A stretch of DNA of 9,396 nt from a virus (lineage: Duplodnaviria; Heunggongvirae; Uroviricota; Caudoviricetes), in IMG/VR virus record IMGVR_UViG_2681813236_000005. The stretch is one strand, 5' to 3'. Position numbers and translations under genes: made by a program. This document shows, piece after piece, positions 1 through 9,396 of this stretch. Numbering within the stretch: the stretch's first letter is position 1; each line of letters starts with the position of its first letter. The notes beneath the pieces were generated by a model. The model saw nothing but the letters and a program-made list of their open reading frames with translations. It was not told where the DNA came from and did not search any database.

Positions 1-1281
1 GACGGGAAAATCCTGCAGGCAGATTACAACACGCTGATGGCGGCGGCGAAAAAGGATTATGAAGCGACGCTGAAAAAGCCGAAACAGTCCGGCGTGAAGG
101 TGTCTGCGGGCGATCGTCAGGAAGACAGTGCTCATGCTGCCCTGCTGACGCTTCAGGCTGAACTCCGGACGCTGGAGAAGCATGCCGGAGCGAATGAGAA
201 AATCAGCCAGCAGCGCCGGGATTTGTGGAAGGCGGAGAGTCAGTTCGCGGTACTGGAGGAGGCGGCACAACGTCGCCAGCTGTCCGCACAGGAGAAATCC
301 CTGCTGGCGCATAAAGATGAGACGCTGGAGTACAAACGCCAGCTGGCTGCACTTGGCGATAAGGTCACGTATCAGGAGCGCCTGAATGCGCTGGCGCAGC
401 AGGCGGATAAATTCGCACAGCAGCAACGGGCAAAACGGGCCGCCATTGATGCGAAAAGCCGGGGGCTGACTGACCGGCAGGCAGAACGGGAAGCCACAGA
501 ACAGCGCCTGAAGGAACAGTATGGCGATAATCCGCTGGCGCTGAATAACGTCATGTCAGAGCAGAAAAAGACCTGGGCGGCTGAAGACCAGCTTCGCGGG
601 AACTGGATGGCAGGCCTGAAGTCCGGCTGGAGTGAGTGGGAAGAGAGCGCCACGGACAGTATGTCGCAGGTAAAAAGTGCAGCCACGCAGACCTTTGATG
701 GTATTGCACAGAATATGGCGGCGATGCTGACCGGCAGTGAGCAGAACTGGCGCAGCTTCACCCGTTCCGTGCTGTCCATGATGACAGAAATTCTGCTTAA
801 GCAGGCAATGGTGGGGATTGTCGGGAGTATCGGCAGCGCCATTGGCGGGGCTGTTGGTGGCGGCGCATCCGCGTCAGGCGGTACAGCCATTCAGGCCGCT
901 GCGGCGAAATTCCATTTTGCAACCGGAGGGTTTACGGGAACCGGCGGCAAATATGAGCCAGCGGGGATTGTTCACCGTGGTGAGTTTGTCTTCACGAAGG
1001 AGGCAACCAGCCGGATTGGCGTGGGGAATCTTTACCGGCTGATGCGCGGCTATGCCACCGGCGGTTATGTCGGTACACCGGGCAGCATGGCAGACAGCCG
1101 GTCGCAGGCGTCCGGGACGTTTGAGCAGAATAACCATGTGGTGATTAACAACGACGGCACGAACGGGCAGATAGGGCCACAGGCGCTGAAGGCTGTTTAT
1201 GACGTAGCCCGTAAGGCGGCAATGGATGTTGTGACCGGGCAGATGCGCGATGGTGGTCTGTTCTCCGGAGGTGGACGATGA
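1..1281 (+). CDS. H: Tail tape-measure protein, C-terminal part (5'-partial; the frame is open from base 1, so the gene begins upstream of the window)
   Basis: Frame 1 is open from position 1 to the TGA at 1279-1281; the listed ORF 37..1281 is only the first in-window Met. Translation is Ala/Gln/Arg/Glu-rich and coiled-coil-like, followed by a Gly-rich segment (GSIGSAIGGAVGGGASASGG...TGGFTGTGG), typical of the C-terminus of lambda-type tape-measure proteins. It sits immediately upstream of M-L-K-I-J, as in lambda. Confidence 0.88.
   Translation, partial: DGKILQADYNTLMAAAKKDYEATLKKPKQSGVKVSAGDRQEDSAHAALLTLQAELRTLEKHAGANEKISQQRRDLWKAESQFAVLEEAAQRRQLSAQEKSLLAHKDETLEYKRQLAALGDKVTYQERLNALAQQADKFAQQQRAKRAAIDAKSRGLTDRQAEREATEQRLKEQYGDNPLALNNVMSEQKKTWAAEDQLRGNWMAGLKSGWSEWEESATDSMSQVKSAATQTFDGIAQNMAAMLTGSEQNWRSFTRSVLSMMTEILLKQAMVGIVGSIGSAIGGAVGGGASASGGTAIQAAAAKFHFATGGFTGTGGKYEPAGIVHRGEFVFTKEATSRIGVGNLYRLMRGYATGGYVGTPGSMADSRSQASGTFEQNNHVVINNDGTNGQIGPQALKAVYDVARKAAMDVVTGQMRDGGLFSGGGR
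1267..1272 (+). promoter_or_regulatory. Shine-Dalgarno (GGAGGT) for M, located inside the 3' end of H
   Basis: GGAGGT lies 5 nt upstream of the ATG at 1278. Confidence 0.6.
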
Positions 1282-1607
1282 AAACCTTCCGCTGGAAAGT
1301 GAAACCCGGGATGGATGTGACATCGGCTCCTTCCGTCAGGGAGGTGCGCTTTGGTGATGGCTATTCCCAGCGTGCGCCTGCCGGGCTGAACGCTGACCTG
1401 AAAACGTACAGCGTGACGCTGTCTGTCTCCCGTGAGGAGGCCACGGCGCTGGAGTCGTTTCTGGCAGAGCACGGAGGCTGGAAGGCCTTTCTGTGGACGC
1501 CGCCTTATGGTTACAGGCAGATAAAGGTGACCTGCGCAAAATGGTCGTCGCAGGTCAGTATGTTGCGTGTTGAGTTCAGCGCAGAGTTTAAACAGGTGGT
1601 GAACTGA
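1278..1607 (+). CDS. M: Minor tail protein M (tail tip assembly)
   Basis: 109-aa ORF MKTFRWKVKPGMDV...EFSAEFKQVVN, the same length as and closely resembling lambda gpM as I recall it. Its start overlaps the H stop (ATGA) and there is a good SD upstream. Confidence 0.92.
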   Translation: MKTFRWKVKPGMDVTSAPSVREVRFGDGYSQRAPAGLNADLKTYSVTLSVSREEATALESFLAEHGGWKAFLWTPPYGYRQIKVTCAKWSSQVSMLRVEFSAEFKQVVN

Positions 1608-2305
1608 TGCAGGATATCCGGCAGGAAACACTGAATGAATGCACCCGTGCGGAGCAGTCGGCCAGCGTGGTGCTCTGGGAAATCGATCTGACAGAGGTCG
1701 GTGGAGAACGTTATTTTTTCTGTAATGAGCAGAACGAAAAAGGTGAGCCGGTCACCTGGCAGGGGCGACAGTATCAGCCGTATCCCATTCAGGGGAGCGG
1801 TTTTGAACTGAATGGCAAAGGCACCAGTACGCGCCCCACGCTGACGGTTTCTAACCTGTACGGTATGGTCACCGGGATGGCGGAAGATATGCAGAGTCTG
1901 GTCGGCGGAACGGTGGTCCGGCGTAAGGTTTACGCCCGTTTTCTGGATGCGGTGAACTTCGTCAACGGAAACAGAGACGCCGATCCGGAGCAGGAGGTGA
2001 TCAGCCGCTGGCGCATCGAGCAGTGCAGCGAACTGAGCGCGGTGAGTGCCTCCTTTGTACTGTCCACGCCGACGGAAACGGATGGCGCTGTTTTTCCGGG
2101 ACGTATCATGCTGGCCAACACCTGCACCTGGACCTATCGCGGTGATGAGTGCGGTTATCACGGTCCGGCAGTCGCGGATGAATATGACCAGCTGACGTCC
2201 GATATCACGAAGGATAAATGCAGCAAATGCCTGAGCGGCTGTAAGTTTCGCAATAACGTCGGCAACTTTGGCGGCTTCCTTTCCATTAACAAACTTTCGC
2301 AGTAA
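1607..2305 (+). CDS. L: Minor tail protein L (tail tip assembly; Cys-rich C-terminus)
   Basis: 232-aa ORF, the same length as lambda gpL. Its ATG overlaps the M stop (TGATG). A C-terminal cysteine cluster (CTWTYRGDEC...CSKCLSGC, nt 2123-2242) is present. Position between M and K matches lambda. Confidence 0.92.
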   Translation: MQDIRQETLNECTRAEQSASVVLWEIDLTEVGGERYFFCNEQNEKGEPVTWQGRQYQPYPIQGSGFELNGKGTSTRPTLTVSNLYGMVTGMAEDMQSLVGGTVVRRKVYARFLDAVNFVNGNRDADPEQEVISRWRIEQCSELSAVSASFVLSTPTETDGAVFPGRIMLANTCTWTYRGDECGYHGPAVADEYDQLTSDITKDKCSKCLSGCKFRNNVGNFGGFLSINKLSQ

Positions 2306-2309
2306 ACCC

Positions 2310-3053
2310 ATGACAGAAACAGAATCAGCGATTCTGGCGCACGCCCGGCGATGTGCGCCAGCGGAGTCGTGCGGCTTCGTGGTGAGAGCGCCGGAGGGGG
2401 AAAGATATTTTCCCTGCATGAATATTTCCGGTGAGCCGGAGGGTTATTTCCGGATGTCGCCGGAAGACTGGCTGCAGGCAGAAATGCAGGGTGAGATTGT
2501 GGCGCTGGTCCACAGCCACCCCGGTGGTCTGCCCTGGCTGAGTGAGGCCGACCGGCGGCTGCAGGTGCAGAGTGATTTGCCGTGGTGGCTGGTCTGCCTG
2601 GGCGTGATTCACAAGTTCCGCTGTGTGCCGTATCTCACCGGGCGGCGCTTTGAGCACGGAGTGACGGACTGTTACACGCTGTTCCGGGACGCTTACCATC
2701 TGGCGGGAATTGAGATGCCGGATTTTCATCGCGAGGATGACTGGTGGCGTCACGGTCAGAATCTCTATCTTGACAATATGGAGGCAACGGGTTTTTACCG
2801 TGTCGCACTGACAGAGGCGCAGCCTGGCGACGTGCTGCTGTGCTGCTTTGGTTCATCGGTGCCGAATCATGCCGCCATTTACTGCGGCGACGGCGAGCTG
2901 CTGCACCATATTCCTGAACAACTGAGTAAACGAGAGAGGTACACCGACAAATGGCAGCGACGCACACACTCCCTCTGGCGTCACCGGGCATGGCACGCAT
3001 CTGCCTTTACGGGGATTTGCAACGATTTGGCCGCCGCATCGACCTTCGTGTGA
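2310..3053 (+). CDS. K: Tail assembly protein K (JAB/MPN metalloprotease-like plus NlpC/P60 peptidase-like domains); start uncertain, alternative in-frame start at 2454
   Basis: The ORF carries a JAMM-type motif HSHPGGLPWLSEAD (nt 2511-2552) and an NlpC/P60-like Cys (DCYTLF, nt 2670-2672) with downstream His residues (nt 2868-2870, 2904-2909). The ATG at 2310 lies 4 nt after the L stop; the Met at 2454 would give a 199-aa product, matching the length I recall for the lambda K annotation. The Met at 2268 in the ORF track overlaps L and is unlikely to be the start. Confidence 0.85.
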   Translation: MTETESAILAHARRCAPAESCGFVVRAPEGERYFPCMNISGEPEGYFRMSPEDWLQAEMQGEIVALVHSHPGGLPWLSEADRRLQVQSDLPWWLVCLGVIHKFRCVPYLTGRRFEHGVTDCYTLFRDAYHLAGIEMPDFHREDDWWRHGQNLYLDNMEATGFYRVALTEAQPGDVLLCCFGSSVPNHAAIYCGDGELLHHIPEQLSKRERYTDKWQRRTHSLWRHRAWHASAFTGICNDLAAASTFV

Positions 3054-3598
3054 AAACGGGGGCTGAAGTCATCCGGGCGCTGGCCACACAGCTCCCGGCG
3101 TTTCGTCAGAAACTGAGCGATGGCTGGTATCAGATACGGATTGCCGGGCGTGATACAGGTGAAAACGAATTATCAGCCCGTCTGAATGAGCCGCTGGAAA
3201 ATGGTGCCGTGATCCACATCGTACCGCGTCTGGCGGGTGCTAAAAGTGGCGGTATTTTTCAGGCAGTGCTGGGGGCGGCGCTGATTGCGGTTGCATGGTG
3301 GAACCCTGTGGGCTGGCTGGGGGCCGCGGCTGTATCGGGTATGTATGCGGCAGGGGCCAGTATGATCCTGGGCGGTGTTGCACAGATGCTGGCCCCCAAA
3401 CCCAGAACCCCCCGAACACAGACAACGGATAACGGTAAGCAGAACACCTATTTCTCCTCACTGGATAACATGGTTGCCCAGGGCAATGTTCTGCCTGTTC
3501 TGTACGGTGAAATGCGCGTGGGGTCACGCGTGGTTTCTCAGGAGATCAGCACGGCAGACGAAGGGGACGGTGGTCAGGTTGTGGTGATTGGTCGCTGA
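2951..3598 (+). CDS. I: Tail assembly protein I (ubiquitin-like beta-grasp N-terminal domain, hydrophobic Gly/Ala-rich middle, conserved C-terminus)
   Basis: 215-aa ORF MAATHTLPLASPGMARICLYGDLQRFGRR...GDGGQVVVIGR resembling lambda gpI. It overlaps the 3' end of K by 103 nt in another frame, as in lambda. An SD-like AGAGAGG sits at 2933-2939. Confidence 0.9.
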   Translation: MAATHTLPLASPGMARICLYGDLQRFGRRIDLRVKTGAEVIRALATQLPAFRQKLSDGWYQIRIAGRDTGENELSARLNEPLENGAVIHIVPRLAGAKSGGIFQAVLGAALIAVAWWNPVGWLGAAAVSGMYAAGASMILGGVAQMLAPKPRTPRTQTTDNGKQNTYFSSLDNMVAQGNVLPVLYGEMRVGSRVVSQEISTADEGDGGQVVVIGR

Positions 3599-3616
3599 TG
3601 CAAAATATTTTATGTG

Positions 3617-3644
3617 AAACCGCCTCCGGGCGGTTTTATCGTTT
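3617..3644 (+). terminator. GC-rich hairpin followed by a T-rich tract in the I-J intergenic spacer (candidate intrinsic terminator/attenuator or mRNA-stabilising stem-loop)
   Basis: AAACCGCC (3617-3624), loop TCCG, GGCGGTTT (3629-3636) form a perfect 8-bp inverted repeat, followed by TATCGTTT. The T-tract is on the + strand only. Confidence 0.4.
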
Positions 3645-3646
3645 AT

Positions 3647-3650
3647 GGAG
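3647..3650 (+). promoter_or_regulatory. Shine-Dalgarno (GGAG) for J
   Basis: GGAG lies 8 nt upstream of the ATG at 3659. Confidence 0.55.
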
Positions 3651-3658
3651 CATGACGA

Positions 3659-6600
3659 ATGGGTAAAGGCAGCAGTAAGGGGCATACCCCGCGCGAAGCG
3701 AAGGACAACCTGAAGTCCACGCAGTTGCTGAGTGTGATCGATGCCATCAGCGAAGGGCCGATTGAAGGTCCGGTGGATGGCTTAAAAAGCGTGCTGCTGA
3801 ACAGTACGCCAGTGCTGGACAGTGAGGGGAATACCAACATCGCCGGTGTCACGGTGGTGTTCCGGGCTGGTGAGCAGGAGCAGACTCCGCCGGAGGGATT
3901 TGAATCCTCCGGCTCCGAGACGGTGCTGGGTACGGAAGTGAAATATGACACGCCGATCACCCGCACCATTACGTCTGCAAACATCGACCGTCTGCGCTTT
4001 ACCTTCGGTGTACAGGCACTGGTGGAAACCACCTCAAAGGGTGACAGGAATCCGTCGGAAGTCCGCCTGCTGGTTCAGATACAACGTAACGGTGGCTGGG
4101 TGACGGAAAAAGACATCACCATTAAGGGCAAAACCACCTCGCAGTATCTGGCCTCGGTGGTGGTGGGTAACCTGCCGCCGCGCCCGTTTAATATCCGGAT
4201 GCGCAGGATGACGCCGGACAGCACCACAGACCAGCTGCAGAACAAAACGCTCTGGTCGTCATACACTGAAATCATCGATGTGAAACAGTGCTACCCGAAC
4301 ACGGCACTGGTCGGCGTACAGGTGGATTCGGAGCAGTTCGGCAGCCAGCAGGTGAGCCGTAATTATCATCTGCGCGGGCGTATTCTGCAGGTGCCGTCGA
4401 ACTATAACCCGCAGACGCGGCAATACAGCGGTATCTGGGACGGAACGTTTAAGCCAGCATACAGCAATAACATGGCCTGGTGTCTGTGGGATATGCTGAC
4501 CCATCCACGCTACGGCATGGGGAAACGTCTTGGTGCGGCGGATGTGGACAAATGGGCGCTGTATGTCATCGGCCAGTACTGCGACCAGTCAGTGCCGGAC
4601 GGCTTTGGCGGCACGGAGCCGCGCATCGCCTGTAATGCGTACCTGACCACACAGCGCAAGGCGTGGGATGTGCTCAGTGATTTCTGCTCGGCGATGCGCT
4701 GTATGCCGGTATGGAACGGGCAGACGCTGACGTTCGTGCAGGACCGACCGTCGGATAAGGTGTGGACCTATAACCGCAGTAATGTGGTGATGCCGGATGA
4801 TGGCGCGCCGTTCCGCTACAGCTTCAGCGCCCTGAAAGACCGCCATAATGCCGTTGAGGTGAACTGGATTGACCCGAACAACGGCTGGGAGACGGCGACA
4901 GAGCTTGTGGAGGATACGCAGGCCATTGCCCGTTACGGTCGTAACGTCACGAAGATGGATGCTTTTGGCTGTACCAGCCGGGGGCAGGCACACCGCGCCG
5001 GGCTGTGGCTGATTAAAACGGAACTGCTGGAAACGCAGACCGTGGATTTCAGCGTGGGCGCAGAAGGGCTTCGCCATGTGCCGGGCGATGTTATTGAAAT
5101 CTGCGATGATGACTATGCCGGTATCAGCACCGGTGGTCGCGTGCTGGCGGTGAACAGCCAGACCCGGACGCTGACGCTCGACCGTGAAATCACGCTGCCA
5201 TCCTCCGGCACCACGCTGATAAGCCTGGTTGACGGTGAGGGCAATCCGGTCAGCGTGGAGGTTCAGTCCGTCACCGACGGCGTGAAGGTAAAAGTGAGCC
5301 GTGTTCCTGACGGTGTTGCTGAATACAGCGTATGGGGGCTGAAGCTGCCGACGCTGCGCCAGCGACTGTTCCGCTGCGTGAGTATCCGTGAGAACGATGA
5401 CGGCACGTATGCCATCACCGCCGTGCAGCATGTGCCGGAAAAAGAGGCCATCGTGGATAACGGGGCGCACTTTGACGGCGACCAGAGTGGCACGGTGAAT
5501 GGTGTCACGCCGCCAGCGGTGCAGCACCTGACCGCAGAAGTCACTGCAGACAGCGGGGAATATCAGGTGCTGGCGCGCTGGGACACGCCGAAGGTGGTGA
5601 AGGGCGTGAGCTTCCTGCTTCGCCTGACCGTGGCAGCGGATGACGGCAGTGAGCGGCTGGTCAGCACGGCCCGGACGACGGAAACAACATACCGCTTCAG
5701 GCAGCTGGCGCTGGGGCGGTACACGCTGACAGTCCGGGCAGTAAATGCCTGGGGGCAGCAGGGAGACCCGGCGTCGGTATCGTTCCGGATTGCCGCACCG
5801 GCAGCACCGTCGCGGATTGAGCTGACACCGGGGTATTTTCAGATAACGGCGGTCCCGAAACTGGCTGTATATGACCCGACGGTGCAGTTTGAGTTCTGGT
5901 TCTCGGAAAAACGGATTGCGGATATCAGGCAGGTTGAAACCACAGCCCGCTATCTTGGCACGGCGCTGTACTGGATAGCTGCCAGTATCAATATCAGGCC
6001 GGGCCATGATTATTATTTTTACGTTCGCAGTGTGAACACAGTCGGCAAATCGGCATTCGTGGAGGCTGTTGGTCAGCCGAGTGATGATGCATCCGGCTAT
6101 CTGGATTTTTTCAAAGGCGAGATAGGAAAAACCCATCTGGCTCAGGAGCTGTGGACGCAGATTGATAACGGTCAGCTGGCGCCTGATCTGGCTGAAATCA
6201 GGACGTCCATTACGGATGTCAGCAATGAAATCACACAGACCGTCAATAAGAAACTGGAAGACCAGAGTGCAGCGATCCAGCAGATACAGAAGGTTCAGGT
6301 TGATACAAATAATAACCTGAACAGCATGTGGGCTGTGAAGCTGCAGCAGATGCAGGACGGACGCCTTTATATCGCGGGTATCGGTGCCGGTATTGAGAAC
6401 ACCCCTGACGGCATGCAGAGTCAGGTGCTGCTGGCGGCGGACAGGATTGCGATGGTTAATCCTGCGAATGGCAACACAAAACCGATGTTTGTTGGTCAGG
6501 GCGATCAGATATTCATGAACGACGTGTTCCTGAAGCGCCTGACGGCCCCCACCATTACCAGCGGCGGCAATCCTCCAGCCTTTTCCCTGACGCCGGACGG

Positions 6601-7141
6601 GCGGCTGACGGCGAAAAATGCCGATATCAGCGGTAATGTAAATGCGAACTCCGGAACACTCAACAACGTCACGATTAACCAGAACTGCCGGATTCTGGGA
6701 AAACTGTCTGCCAGCCAGATTGAAGGCGATATTGTCAAAACGGTGGGAAAAGCCTTTCCGAGAAACAGCAGTTATGCCAGCGGTACGATAACGGTCACTG
6801 TGTATGATGATCAGGCTTTTGACCGTCAGATAGTGATTCCACCCGTTCTGTTTCGCGGTGGTAAGCATGAAAACTTCAACAGCAACAACCAACAGTCATA
6901 CTGGTATTCAACCTGTAAGCTGCAGGTACTGAAGAACGGACAGGAAATCTTTCACCAACCTGCGACGGATGTCAGTCGGGTATTTTCATCAGTCATTGAT
7001 ATGCCTGCAGGACACGGGCATGTCACCCTGACTTTCAATGTCTCTTCATATGGCGCTAATAACTGGACGCCAACGAGCAGTATCAGTGACCTTCTTGTTG
7101 TCGTGATGAAGAAATCCACAGCTGGTATCAGTATCAGCTGA
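3659..7141 (+). CDS. J: Central tail fibre / host specificity protein J (tail tip, receptor binding)
   Basis: 1160-aa ORF starting [42 protein letters not shown], the lambda gpJ N-terminus as I recall it. The size is typical of gpJ-family proteins, it follows I as in lambda, and it contains FN3-like modules in the middle. The TGA stop at 7139-7141 lies 2 nt before the N run, so the CDS appears complete. Confidence 0.93.
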
Positions 7142-7143
7142 AT

Positions 7144-7536
7144 NNNNNNNNNNNNNNNNNNNNNNNNNNNNNNNNNNNNNNNNNNNNNNNNNNNNNNNNN
7201 NNNNNNNNNNNNNNNNNNNNNNNNNNNNNNNNNNNNNNNNNNNNNNNNNNNNNNNNNNNNNNNNNNNNNNNNNNNNNNNNNNNNNNNNNNNNNNNNNNNN
7301 NNNNNNNNNNNNNNNNNNNNNNNNNNNNNNNNNNNNNNNNNNNNNNNNNNNNNNNNNNNNNNNNNNNNNNNNNNNNNNNNNNNNNNNNNNNNNNNNNNNN
7401 NNNNNNNNNNNNNNNNNNNNNNNNNNNNNNNNNNNNNNNNNNNNNNNNNNNNNNNNNNNNNNNNNNNNNNNNNNNNNNNNNNNNNNNNNNNNNNNNNNNN
7501 NNNNNNNNNNNNNNNNNNNNNNNNNNNNNNNNNNNN
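7144..7536. other. Assembly gap (393 consecutive N); not biological sequence
   Basis: Uninterrupted run of n characters. Confidence 0.99.
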
Positions 7537-8430
7537 GCCGGACAGGCTGCGACGTCGGCTCAGGAGGCTTCTTCCGGCGCAGGAACGGCATCAGCAAAGG
7601 CCGCTGAGGCATCAAAAAGTGCTGCCGCTGCAGAGTCCTCAAAAAGCGCGGCGGCCACCAGTGCCGGTGCCGCGAAAACGTCAGAAACGAATGCGGCAGC
7701 GTCACAACAATCAGCCGCCACGTCTGCATCCACCGCGACCTCGAAAGCGTCAGAAGCTGCCACGTCAGCCAGGGATGCGGCGGCCTCAAAAGAGGCTGCA
7801 AAATCATCAGAAACGAGCGCAGCCTCGAGCGCCGGTAGCGCAGCTTCCTCGGCAACGGCGGCAGGAAATTCCGCGAAGGCGGCAAAGACGTCTGAGACGA
7901 ACGCCAGGTCTTCTGAAACGGCAGCGGAACAGAGTGCCTCCGCAGCAGCAGGCTCAGAAACTGCTGCTGCATCATCGTCCCGTGAGGCGTCAGTTAAAGC
8001 GGAGGAGGCCTCAGCCAGTGCCACCGCCGCCGGAAAATCGGCAGAAAGTGCCGCATCGTCCGCTTCAGCAGCCACAATGAAGGCTGGCGAAGCCACTGAA
8101 CAGGCCACTGCAGCAGCGAGGTCTGCTTCCGCAGCGAGGACATCCGAGACGAACGCGAAAGCGTCGGAAACCCGTGCAGAATCTTCAGAAACGGCTGCTG
8201 TATCGTCCGCCAGTTCGGCGGCGTCATCAGCATCATCGGCGTCAGCTTCAAAAGATGAGGCGGCAAGGCTGGCGTCAGAGGCGCAGGGCAGTGCCACGAC
8301 GGCATCCGCGAAGGCGACAGAGGCAGCTGGCAGTGCGACAGCGGCAGCACAGAGCAAAAGCACGGCAGAATCCGCGGCAACGCGCGCTGAGACTGCGGCA
8401 AAACGGGCGGAGGATATTGCATCTGCCGTG
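7537..8430 (+). repeat. Imperfect in-frame repeat tract encoding Ala/Ser/Thr-rich units (KTSETNA-containing, roughly 70-85 codons apart) within the tail-fibre shaft
   Basis: Related DNA segments recur at about 7672-7700, 7881-7910 and 8137-8165 (gcgaaaacgtcagaaacgaatgcg / gcaaagacgtctgagacgaacgcc / acatccgagacgaacgcgaaagcg). Composition is strongly biased (GCN/TCN/ACN codons), and all three frames on both strands are nearly stop-free here. Confidence 0.6.
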
Positions 8431-9396
8431 GCGCTTGAGGATGCGAGCACGACGAAAAAGGGGATAGTCCAGCTCAGCAGTGCAACTAACAGTACATCTG
8501 AAACACTTGCCGCGACACCAAAGGCCGTAAAAGCCGCCTGTGAGAATGCTGAGAAACGACTGCAGAAAGATAAGAACGGTGCGGATGTCCCCGACAAAGA
8601 CACCTTTACGAAAAATATTGGTGCCTGCCGTGCCTTCGGTGGGGCCGTAAGCACAACGACAGGAGACTGGACGACCGCACAGTTTATCGGGTGGCTGGAT
8701 TCTCAGGGCGCATTTAACCATCCATACTGGATGTGCAAGGGCTCCTGGTCTTACGGTAATAATAAAATCATCACGGATACGGGCTGCGGAAATATTCATC
8801 TCGCCGGCGCTGTCATTGAGGTGATGGGGATAAAGTCAGCGATGACGATCCGCATAACCACACCGACAACATCCAGCGGAAGTGGAACGGCGAATGCGCA
8901 GTTTACCTATATTAATCATGGTGATGGTTATTCCCCTGGCTGGCGTCGTGACTACAACACGAAAAACAAGCCACCGGCCTTTGCGCTGGGAAAAACCGGG
9001 GAAACGCTCGCCGATACAGATGCCGTCGCCTGGAACCTGGACAGTGGCGCTTATTGTGCACAGGATGGTGGCGCATCATCCTTAATTCTTCATTTTAATA
9101 CAGGGGAAGGCAGCTGCCCCGCGGTCCAGTTTCGGGTGAATTACCGGAATGGCGGGATATTTTACCGCTCCGCCCGTGATGGCTATGGCTTTGAGGCGGA
9201 CTGGGAGCGTCTGTTCACGACAACGGGCGGGACCCTGGAAGGTGCTGTGGGTATCGGTGCACAGAATACGCTGGGCGGCCATTCACTTGCGCTGGGGAGG
9301 GGCGACACAGGCCTGAAACAAAACGGCGACGGTAATCTTGATGTTTACGCCGGTAACGCACGTGTAATGCGCTTTACAAACGGCAGCATTCAGGTC
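7537..9396 (+). CDS. stf: Side tail fibre protein (lambda Stf-like), internal fragment: 5' end lost in the gap, 3' end beyond the window
   Basis: The frame starting at 7537 is open for all 620 codons to 9396. It was not reported in the ORF track because it has neither an in-window start nor a stop. Translation is Ala/Ser/Thr-rich with recurring KTSETNA units, then AEDIASAVALEDASTTKKGIVQLSSATNSTSETLAATPKAVK, a conserved phage tail-fibre motif, then a Cys/Gly/aromatic-containing distal domain. Position downstream of J matches the lambda stf locus. Confidence 0.85.

What the first reader, a model, noticed from the sequence alone, without database searches (positions are those of the whole stretch)
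8449..9396. Mosaic junction in the tail fibre: conserved hinge motif followed by a distinct Cys-containing distal domain
The motif TKKGIVQLSSATNSTSETLAATPKAVK (8449-8532) is a conserved element shared by many phage tail fibres and often marks the boundary where distal receptor-binding cassettes are exchanged. Downstream, the composition changes abruptly: more A/T-rich codons, and Cys, Trp, Tyr and Gly appear (CENAEKRLQKD..., IGACRAFGG, YWMCKGSWSYGNNKIITDTGCGN, NLDSGAYCAQDGG...GEGSCPAVQFRVNYRNGGIFYRSARDGYGFE). As I recall it, the NYRNGG..FYRS..DGYGFE block resembles tail fibres of other enterobacterial prophages rather than lambda Stf. The fibre tip, the second host-range determinant, lies beyond the window.
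Basis: partly seen in the sequence, partly recalled or inferred. Interest (0 to 1): 0.55.

Follow-up and report, generated by a model that had tools for sequence, protein, structure and literature searches.

The report
Mosaic prophage side tail fibre junction
This is the point in a lambda-like prophage tail-fibre gene where a lambda-type shaft is joined, through a short linker shared by many phages, to a receptor-binding end of the phage Mu S'/P1 S'/P2 H type; the junction is real, but it is a textbook kind of phage mosaicism.

Summary
The motif TKKGIVQLSSATNSTSETLAATPKAVK lies at 8452-8532, one codon later than stated, and is a strong match to Pfam PF03406 'Phage tail fibre repeat' (E 9e-21). 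Upstream is a 303-aa shaft with 86% Ala/Ser/Thr/Glu/Lys and no Cys, Trp, Tyr or Phe. Downstream is ordinary globular sequence.

The mosaic reading is supported. DNA similarity to Ur-lambda stf stops at 8531, to an O157 prophage stf at 8544, to K-12 StfR and phage 2H10 at 8597, and to PhiR29-type phages at 8978. From 8438-8573 to 9204 the sequence instead matches Mu Sv', P1 Sv' and P2-like gpH. The solved Mu S' fibre (PDB 8JU3) matches at E 1e-113.

One point is wrong. The GC drop from 62% to 54% comes from amino-acid composition (GC2 0.78 to 0.52). GC3 does not fall (0.52 to 0.57).

No invertase crossover site is present. In the nearest E. coli relative the fibre continues for 83 more residues and is followed by a Mu U-type assembly chaperone. 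The full combination occurs in 33 of 5426 complete E. coli genomes. I rate it a new member of a known kind, of low interest.

The parts
7145..7537 (.). Run of 393 N that hides the J-stf spacer and the 5' end of stf (the baseplate-attachment domain in relatives). Its length is not preserved.
   Evidence: Relatives have 116-138 nt more between J and stf nt 476. The orthologue has PF08400 phage_tail_N at aa 1-134.
7540..8448 (+). Ala/Ser-rich fibre shaft of the lambda Stf / Rac StfR type. It is context for the junction.
   Evidence: 86% A+S+T+E+K with no C/W/Y/F. About 89% DNA identity to StfR, 2H10, PhiR29 and O157 stf, and 87% to Ur-lambda over 7538-7970. Matches phrog_3299 and tail-fibre phrogs.
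8446..8568 (+). Hinge: one copy of the Pfam PF03406 'Phage tail fibre repeat'. The core motif TKKGIVQLSSATNSTSETLAATPKAVK lies at 8452-8532. It is the first and commonest exchange boundary.
   Evidence: E 9e-21. Motif present in 7 comparator fibres. Ur-lambda similarity ends at 8531 and O157 at 8544; P2-like gpH similarity begins at 8438. Endpoint cluster.
8569..8598 (+). Second linker, DKNGADVPDK, shared with Mu Sc, P2-like H, StfR and 2H10. It is the second exchange boundary.
   Evidence: K-12 StfR and 2H10 DNA similarity ends at 8597. About 16 of 60 sampled E. coli records end at 8594-8607. Alignment.
8605..8631 (+). FTKNIGACR, the positional homologue of the Mu gix crossover site (Mu S codons 166-174, FIQNLGLQE). 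It is degenerate here and not a recombination site.
   Evidence: The consensus recovers Mu gix and P1 cix with 1-2 mismatches but gives 0 hits at up to 3 mismatches in the window and in L001. The best match in 8540-8680 is 10 of 18 specified positions, against 16 of 18 for Mu gix.
8599..8979 (+). Module M1, a 127-aa Cys/Trp-containing globular module of the Mu S'/P1 S'/P2-like H type with no Pfam family. It ends in the linker DYNTKNKPPA (NKPPA = 8965-8979).
   Evidence: Part of the 8JU3 match, in which query aa 34-272 align with Mu S' aa 178-418, E 1e-113. 60-90% identity to Mu S'. No Pfam hit. PhiR29-type similarity ends at 8978. Occurs as two tandem copies in Photorhabdus P0005. It is the only part of the AF2 model with pLDDT 60-82.
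8980..9264 (+). Module M2, matching Pfam PF12604 gp37_C, which carries NYRNGGIFYRSARDGYGFE. It ends in a degenerate YTT..G..G linker.
   Evidence: PF12604 at 30.1 bits against a cut-off of 22.5. 50-100% identity to Mu S'. DNA similarity to Mu Sv', P1 Sv' and P2-like H ends at 9204. It precedes M1 in P0005.
9265..9396 (+). Start of module M3, a Gly-rich segment (NTLGGHSLALGRGDTGLKQNGDG...) of the T-even gp37 / P2-L-413C gpH type. It runs off the window. The tip (83 aa) and tfa lie beyond.
   Evidence: S16 gp37 (6F45) aa 19-92, E 3e-4. L-413C gpH is 69% identical over distal-query aa 178-400. P0004 is 71% identical. A weak PF20744 gp37_trimer hit falls below the cut-off. Full ORF and tfa are in L001.

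Best explanation
Region 8449-9396 is the inter-module hinge and most of the receptor-binding half of the side tail fibre (stf) gene of a lambda-like prophage. The protein is a chimera. Its N-terminal attachment domain and Ala/Ser-rich shaft are of the lambda Stf / Rac StfR type. Its distal half is of the type found in myovirus fibres (Mu S', P1 S', P2-like gpH). The distal half is built from discrete modules: hinge, M1, M2, a Gly-rich M3, and the tip. The modules are separated by short conserved linkers: the Phage_fiber_2 repeat, NGADxPxK, and YNTxNKPxA. These linkers stay similar at the DNA level among otherwise unrelated fibre genes. They therefore offer patches of homology where recombination between co-resident phages and prophages can swap everything downstream. 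This retargets the fibre while keeping its attachment to the lambda-type tail. By inference from its homologues, the fibre is a homotrimer that binds the lipopolysaccharide core and speeds reversible adsorption, while J makes the committed contact. Its tip would need the downstream Mu U-type Tfa chaperone to trimerise. What is shown here: the anatomy, the homologies and the breakpoint positions. What is inferred: trimer formation, LPS binding, chaperone dependence and the recombination mechanism.
For: Hinge: PF03406, E 9e-21, present in lambda, Mu and P2-type fibres. Distal homology: PDB 8JU3, the Mu S' fibre, E 1e-113 over Mu S' aa 178-418; tblastn hits to Mu S', D108 S', P1 Sv', P7 S, SfMu and P2-like gpH at 60-77%; 990 homologues, most of the best-scoring hits being 486-aa proteins, two of them named Mu prophage. 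Breakpoints fall in the linkers at 8531/8544, 8597, 8978 and 9204, and endpoints cluster across 4127 E. coli records. The identity profile along the protein shows each comparator switching on or off at these boundaries. The modules are autonomous: Photorhabdus P0005 has the order M2-M1-M1, each ending in an NKPxAxDVG linker. In the orthologue the ORF is intact at 861 aa and is followed by a Caudo_TAP Tfa (PF02413, 103 bits) that is 74% identical to Mu U. Literature: lambda exchanges stf DNA with Rac and Qin by relaxed homologous recombination (PMC3945230). An engineered lambda-P2 Stf chimera joined at lambda R393, 8 residues after this motif, is functional and was designed to target K-12 LPS (PMC11338833). 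Mu fibres recognise the LPS core, and the Mu TFA stays bound at the tip (PMC11821841, PMC9608196).
Against: No experiment or structure exists for this protein. The AF2 monomer model is poor (pLDDT 45.7) and adds nothing. The receptor is inferred only from 65-90% identical homologues, and a few changes in fibre loops can alter specificity. The 5' end of the gene is masked in the window, so attachment to the lambda-type tail rests on the orthologue. RefSeq annotates the orthologue as a truncated pseudogene. The prophage lies beside a truncated ydfJ, which from memory I take to be the Qin site, and it could be cryptic, so expression is unproven.
Confidence: 0.85

Rival explanations
1. The junction is the crossover site of a Gin/Cin/Pin-type DNA invertase. 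The distal cassette would then be one of two alternative, invertible host-range segments, as in the Mu G and P1 C segments.
For: In Mu the gix site lies 25 codons after the same hinge motif, and window 8605-8631 is its positional homologue. The StfR/2H10 break at 8597 lies 8 nt upstream of that position, and both Rac and 2H10 carry an invertase gene after tfa. The literature proposes invertase-driven exchange of stf genes (PMC3945230).
Against: The crossover consensus finds Mu gix and P1 cix but nothing at up to 3 mismatches in the window or in L001. The best local match is 10 of 18 positions. In the orthologous locus tfa is followed directly by ydfJ', with no invertase and no inverted alternative cassette.
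Confidence: 0.05
2. There is no exchange. This is one ancestral gene whose distal half has simply diverged faster under diversifying selection.
For: Receptor-binding ends are known to evolve quickly. 33 E. coli alleles are collinear at 97.6-99% over the whole stretch.
Against: The distal half is 65-90% identical to fibres whose N-termini are unrelated, namely Mu S' and P2-like H. The same shaft, at about 89% DNA identity, is joined to at least four unrelated distal sequences, with similarity ending at defined positions (8531, 8544, 8597, 8978). The modules occur in a different order in Photorhabdus.
Confidence: 0.03
3. The gene is a decaying remnant in a cryptic prophage, as RefSeq's 'pseudogene, missing C-terminus' label implies. 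The junction would then have no current function.
For: The PGAP annotation. The locus is next to a truncated ydfJ, which from memory I take to be the Qin site of K-12. In 32 of the 33 genomes no feature is annotated over the distal part.
Against: The ORF is uninterrupted for 861 aa in L001 and is open throughout the window. The tfa gene is intact. There is 1 mismatch in 864 nt of distal sequence against L001, and nine genomes are 100% identical over 8980-9396. A full set of tail genes lies upstream. The pseudogene label probably arises because the annotation model covers only the N-terminal domain.
Confidence: 0.1
4. The junction is an assembly chimera. Reads from several resident prophage fibre genes were joined at the shared motif, and the nearby N-run hints at assembly trouble.
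For: A 393-N gap lies just upstream. E. coli genomes carry up to 7 places matching this query, and up to 4 copies of the distal cassette.
Against: The identical contiguous arrangement occurs in 33 complete-level E. coli genomes and in an NCBI protein cluster of 164 members at 99% identity.
Confidence: 0.02

Closest known systems
Phage Mu tail fibre S' (gp52, G(-) orientation; PDB 8JU3, Mori et al. 2024 Virology 593:110017, paper not held)
   Same: The hinge, NGAD linker, M1 and M2 are collinear and 65-90% identical (window 8449 to about 9228). Four of the five distal Cys after the NGAD linker are conserved. Mu S' is also followed by a Tfa-family chaperone.
   Different: The Mu N-terminus docks to a myovirus baseplate and is unrelated. 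Mu S' has an extra 27 residues carrying the gix site plus a duplicated NGADIP..NIGACRA stretch. Mu S' lacks the Gly-rich M3. Its tip is only about 33% identical, and its chaperone U' only 50%. Here there is no invertible segment.
P2-like gpH fibres (vB_EcoM-12474III, fiAA91-ss, L-413C) with gpG/U
   Same: These are the best overall relatives of the distal half. fiAA91-ss and P2-type gpH align over the whole distal 400 aa (about 61% identity). 12474III gpH covers 84% of it at 77% and is 80% identical at the tip. The chaperone is 78% identical.
   Different: They have a myovirus N-terminus, 2-3 tandem hinge repeats instead of one, and no Ala/Ser shaft. 12474III lacks M3.
Ur-lambda Stf and E. coli K-12 Rac StfR
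   Same: The N-terminal domain, Ala/Ser shaft and hinge are shared. Protein identity to Ur-lambda is 63% over aa 1-488, and DNA identity to StfR is about 89% up to 8597. The gene position after J is the same.
   Different: Distal to 8531 (lambda) or 8597 (StfR) identity falls to 10-40%. Lambda Tfa resembles this Tfa only in its C-terminal 62 aa, at 42%. Lambda Stf binds OmpC (PMC11338833), whereas this distal type is associated with LPS.
Engineered lambda-P2 STF chimera (Brodel et al. 2024, PMC11338833)
   Same: A lambda Stf N-terminal part is fused to a P2 gpH distal part, 8 residues after the same hinge motif (lambda R393). The chimera is functional and was designed to target K-12 LPS.
   Different: It is man-made and uses the P2 H distal part from aa 251. 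The window carries a natural allele with a different M1/M2/M3 set.
T-even gp37 distal fibre (S16 gp37, PDB 6F45; Pfam gp37_C)
   Same: M2 passes the gp37_C threshold. M3 aligns with S16 gp37 aa 19-92.
   Different: The similarity is weak (E 3e-4) and local. No gp38 adhesin is present. The tip is of the Mu S / P2 H type.

Membership tests
Pfam PF03406 Phage_fiber_2 (phage tail fibre repeat) | Score above the curated gathering threshold (22 bits) over the 42-position profile | tested here: met
   73.6 bits, E 9e-21, profile positions 1-41, nt 8446-8568.
Pfam PF12604 gp37_C | Score above the gathering threshold (22.5 bits) | tested here: met
   27.1-30.1 bits, profile positions 2-70 of 95, nt about 8989-9216. 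The match is partial.
Lambdoid side tail fibre (Stf/StfR) | N-terminal PF08400 phage_tail_N domain, with the gene placed downstream of J | tested here: inconclusive
   The position after J is met. The N-terminus is masked by N in the window. The 99%-identical orthologue has PF08400 at 243.6 bits.
Lambdoid side tail fibre (Stf/StfR) | Ala/Ser-rich shaft homologous to lambda Stf / StfR | tested here: met
   About 87-90% DNA identity to lambda, StfR, 2H10 and O157 stf.
Lambdoid side tail fibre (Stf/StfR) | Lambda-type distal domain and lambda-type Tfa | tested here: not met
   Identity to Ur-lambda Stf is 10-40% after the hinge. Only the C-terminal 62 aa of Tfa resemble lambda Tfa, at 42%.
Mu S' / P1 S' variable-part fibre | Collinear homology to Sv' (M1 + M2) | tested here: met
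   8JU3 E 1e-113. Tblastn identities of 65-70% to Mu, D108 and P1 Sv'.
Mu S' / P1 S' variable-part fibre | Location inside an invertible segment bounded by inverted gix/cix sites, with an adjacent invertase | tested here: not met
   No site at up to 3 mismatches in the window or L001, although the same pattern finds the Mu and P1 sites. The orthologous locus has no invertase.
Mu S' / P1 S' variable-part fibre | S'-type tip with U'-type chaperone | tested here: not met
   In the orthologue the tip is 33% identical to S' but 51% to Mu S and 80% to 12474III H. Tfa is 74% identical to U and 50% to U'. All of this lies beyond the window.
Tfa-dependent fibre (Caudo_TAP, PF02413) | A tail fibre assembly gene immediately downstream | not testable with these tools
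   It lies beyond the window end. In orthologue L001 the gene is at 8115-8645, PF02413 at 102.9 bits. The source contig was not found.
LPS-core-binding fibres | Demonstrated binding to the lipopolysaccharide core | not testable with these tools
   Inferred from the Mu and P2 homologues only (PMC11821841, PMC11338833).

The most novel reading that the evidence does not exclude
M1 (8599-8979) has no Pfam family. It may be an autonomous, copy-number-variable and order-variable carbohydrate-binding 'bead' bounded by NKPxAxDVG linkers (M1-M2 here, M2-M1-M1 in Photorhabdus). This allele pairs a Mu G(-)-type body (M1+M2) with a G(+)-type tip and U-type chaperone. It would then be a natural domain-swap showing whether the body or the tip-plus-chaperone sets LPS specificity in Mu/P1/P2-type fibres.
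Probability: 0.3. Interest if true: 0.35.

Novelty: new member of a known kind. Interest (0 to 1): 0.2.

Why it matters
The finding adds a precisely mapped natural example to a well-established principle: tail-fibre genes are assembled from exchangeable modules joined at short conserved linkers. The nucleotide-level junction map (8531/8544, 8597, 8978, about 9204) and the linker motifs are of practical use. They show where chimeric receptor-binding proteins can be joined when retargeting lambda-derived delivery particles, because nature uses almost the same site as the published lambda-P2 chimera. It also exposes a recurrent annotation error: an intact mosaic fibre gene is labelled a truncated pseudogene. 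It opens no new biological question.

Tried and rejected
- **Invertase crossover site at the junction.** A consensus scan finds the Mu and P1 sites but none in the window, in L001, or in the 2H10 and Rac loci. Rejected.
- **Foreign base composition as evidence of transfer.** The GC drop comes from codon position 2 only, and GC3 is unchanged. Rejected as evidence.
- **AlphaFold2 monomer model of 8449-9396 with a 27-sequence alignment.** Mean pLDDT was 45.7, and only M1 was moderately confident. The Foldseek PDB search returned only 8JU3, at TM 0.35, so there is no extra information on the fold.
- **Retrieving the source contig to read the true downstream sequence.** An exact 57-mer had no match in genome contigs. 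The protein-based scan gave only 7 partial relatives, in Yokenella, Salmonella, Xenorhabdus, Photorhabdus and a MAG.
- **Pfam and NCBIfam scans of the long protein.** These missed the hinge. It appeared only when the hinge was scanned on its own.
- **Primary papers.** The papers for 8JU3 (Mori 2024) and for Tfa-LPS binding (North and Davidson 2021) are not held. Domain-level functional statements for Mu S' therefore rest on secondary citations.

Full report
**Context.** The window carries lambda-type tail genes that end with J (3659-7141). A run of 393 N follows (7145-7537). After that, one frame is open from 7540 to the window end.

The closest complete genome is E. coli ARS-C301, at 99.0% identity over 7538-9396. 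There the open frame belongs to an uninterrupted 861-codon gene directly downstream of J. That gene is followed by a 176-codon tail fibre assembly gene and then by a truncated ydfJ. From memory, I take this to be the Qin attachment locus of K-12.

The orthologue has Pfam phage_tail_N at residues 1-134, and its Tfa matches Caudo_TAP. The gene is therefore the side tail fibre gene, stf. The window ends at residue 778 of 861.

**The observation.** The 27-residue motif lies at 8452-8532, one codon later than stated. Scanned on its own, the hinge matches Pfam PF03406 'Phage tail fibre repeat' at 73.6 bits, E 9e-21. Scans of the long protein had missed it.

The same motif occurs in Ur-lambda Stf, in the stf genes of phages 2H10 and PhiR29, and in the constant part of Mu S/S'. 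It occurs in two or three tandem copies in P2-like gpH.

The change in amino-acid composition is real:

| Segment | Composition |
|---|---|
| Shaft 7540-8448 | 86% Ala/Ser/Thr/Glu/Lys; no Cys, Trp, Tyr or Phe |
| Distal 8533-9396 | 6 Cys, 7 Trp, 10 Tyr, 12 Phe, 43 Gly |

The inference of 'more A/T-rich codons' is not sound. GC falls from 0.62 to 0.54 only because codon position 2 falls from 0.78 to 0.52. GC3 is 0.52 in the shaft and 0.57 in the distal part.

**The junction is a nested series.** Pairwise blastn locates where similarity to each relative starts or stops:

| Comparator | Similarity relative to the window |
|---|---|
| Ur-lambda stf | stops at 8531, the last base but one of the motif |
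| O157 prophage stf | stops at 8544 |
| K-12 Rac stfR and phage 2H10 | stops at 8597 |
| PhiR29-type lambdoid phages | stops at 8978 |
| P2-like gpH | runs from 8438 to 9204 |
| P1 Sv' | runs from 8561 to 9204 |
| Mu Sv' | runs from 8573 to 9204 |

I took an evenly spaced sample of 60 of the 4127 matching E. coli records. About 25 alignments end at 8522-8544, about 16 at 8594-8607 and 9 at 8978. Only 33 genomes are full length. A uniform expectation for the first interval is under one record, although the records are not independent.

The protein identity profile shows the same steps:
- **Ur-lambda** is 95% identical in the motif and 20-40% after it.
- **2H10** drops after about residue 515.
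- **PhiR29** stays at 70-100% to residue 640.
- **Mu S'** stays at 50-100% from residue 463 to 722.
- **The tip** (residues 803-861, beyond the window) is 70-90% identical to a P2-like gpH and 30-63% to Mu S.

**Anatomy of the distal half.** Each boundary falls in a short conserved linker:
- **Hinge.** The Phage_fiber_2 repeat, 8446-8568.
- **Second linker.** DKNGADVPDK, 8569-8598.
- **M1, 8599-8979.** This module has no Pfam family. It carries three of the Cys conserved with Mu S' and ends in DYNTKNKPPA.
- **M2, 8980-9264.** This module passes the Pfam gp37_C threshold. It contains the NYRNGGIFYRSARDGYGFE block and ends in a degenerate form of the same linker.
- **M3, from 9265.** A Gly-rich segment that aligns with S16 gp37 (PDB 6F45) and with P2/L-413C gpH.

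A Photorhabdus protein carries the same modules in the order M2-M1-M1, each followed by an NKPxAxDVG linker. The modules are therefore autonomous units.

**What the distal half resembles.** A sequence search of the PDB gives the Mu S' fibre, 8JU3, at E 1e-113 over Mu S' residues 178-418. It gives the Mu S fibre, 5YVQ, for the hinge and for the tip. Tblastn against phage genomes finds P2-like gpH over the whole distal half, and the Mu, D108, P1 and P7 variable parts over M1+M2. The large protein database holds 990 relatives; most of the best-scoring hits are 486-residue proteins, two of them named as Mu prophage.

The downstream chaperone of the orthologue is 74% identical to Mu U, 78% to a P2-like U and 50% to Mu U'. 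It resembles lambda Tfa only in its C-terminal third. The fibre thus combines three parts:
- a lambda-type attachment end and shaft;
- a Mu G(-)-type body;
- a G(+)/P2-type tip and chaperone.

**Invertase rival.** In Mu, the gix site encodes FIQNLGLQE, which starts 25 codons after the hinge. The window's FTKNIGACR (8605-8631) is its positional homologue. A crossover-site consensus recovers both Mu gix sites and both P1 cix sites. It finds nothing at up to three mismatches in the window, the orthologous locus, 2H10 or Rac. The best local match is 10 of 18 specified positions.

The orthologous locus has no invertase and no alternative cassette. The junction is therefore not a present-day inversion site. 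An old invertase-mediated event at 8597 cannot be excluded, and the literature has proposed such events (PMC3945230).

**Mechanism.** The anatomy, the homologies and the breakpoints are shown here. The rest is inferred. The short linkers keep enough DNA similarity between otherwise unrelated fibre genes for recombination. Lambda demonstrably exchanges stf DNA with Rac and Qin by relaxed homologous recombination (PMC3945230).

Function is inferred from homologues:
- Mu fibres recognise the LPS core (PMC11821841).
- The Mu chaperone remains bound to the fibre tip and aids trimerisation (PMC9608196).
- An engineered lambda-P2 Stf chimera, joined at lambda R393, eight residues after this motif, is functional and was designed to target K-12 LPS (PMC11338833).

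My own structure prediction gave a poor model (mean pLDDT 45.7) that matched only 8JU3, so it adds nothing.

**Other rivals.**
- **Rapid divergence without exchange.** The stepwise identity profile, and the reuse of the distal modules behind unrelated N-termini, contradict this.
- **Pseudogene.** RefSeq labels the orthologue this way. The ORF is nevertheless intact and the distal part is nearly invariant. There is one mismatch in 864 nt against ARS-C301, compared with 16 in 911 nt of shaft, Fisher p = 2.8e-4.
- **Assembly chimera.** The same arrangement occurs in 33 complete genomes, which excludes this.

**Verdict.** The phenomenon is a classic one. This allele is a rare member of a known kind, found in 33 of 5426 complete E. 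coli genomes at 54 places, but it is already sequenced. Interest is low.

Noticed in passing
window 7145-7537: The run of 393 N does not preserve length. The best E. coli relatives have 116-138 nt more between the end of J and stf nt 476, so about 530 nt (the spacer plus the stf 5' end) are hidden.
   Followed up: partly
L001 5526-8111 (orthologue of window ~7063-9396+): RefSeq/PGAP annotates this intact 861-codon stf as a truncated pseudogene ('missing C-terminus', 5526-7088). In 32 of the 33 genomes carrying it, no feature is annotated over the distal part. This is probably an artefact of a model that covers only the N-terminal domain of a mosaic protein.
   Followed up: partly
window 8980-9396: This distal cassette occurs in only 33 of 5426 complete E. 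coli genomes, but at 54 places, with up to 4 copies per genome. It has therefore spread among several resident prophages of the same strains.
   Followed up: no
window 7538-9396 vs L001: Differences from the closest relative are unevenly spread: 16 in the shaft (7 of them clustered at 7557-7590), 1 in the hinge and 1 in the distal half; Fisher p = 2.8e-4. This suggests gene conversion among shaft repeats, or a separate recent history for the distal half.
   Followed up: partly
protein P0005 (Photorhabdus temperata): The same modules occur in permuted and duplicated order (M2, M1, M1). Each ends in a Y(N/T)TxNKPxAxDVG linker.
   Followed up: yes
protein P0002 (Logan assembly, 500 aa): A sequence that appears to be a terminase small-subunit (Nu1, PF07471) N-terminus is fused in frame into the middle of the hinge motif (…LSRLVQLSSATNSTSE…). 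This looks like a deletion within a decaying prophage that ends inside the conserved motif. An E. coli hit annotated 'phage tail protein | DNA-packaging protein' looks similar (H170).
   Followed up: no
window 37-7141 vs 7540-9396: The whole stf has lower GC3 (0.52-0.57) than J, L and the upstream tail gene (0.66-0.67). The fibre gene as a whole, not just its distal half, differs in codon usage from the rest of the tail module.
   Followed up: no
window ~6900-7141 (J C-terminus): The last part of J differs from that of the closest stf relative, ARS-C301. Only 3 genomes match both the J end and stf at 89% coverage or more, so J and stf alleles are also reassorted.
   Followed up: no
Mu S' (L002 1694-2651) vs window 8533-8640: Mu S' carries two copies of the NGADIPxK..F..N(I/L)G stretch, one in Sc that overlaps gix and one at the start of Sv'. 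The window, P2-like gpH and PhiR29 have a single copy. The non-invertible fibres therefore look like Mu S' with the gix-bearing 27 residues removed.
   Followed up: partly
L005 (phage 2H10) 6552-7057 and L017 (Rac) 7557-8147: Both loci encode a DNA invertase after tfa, yet no gix/cix-like site is found within 3 mismatches of the consensus (best 11-13 of 18). Their crossover sites, if any exist, are divergent or lost.
   Followed up: partly
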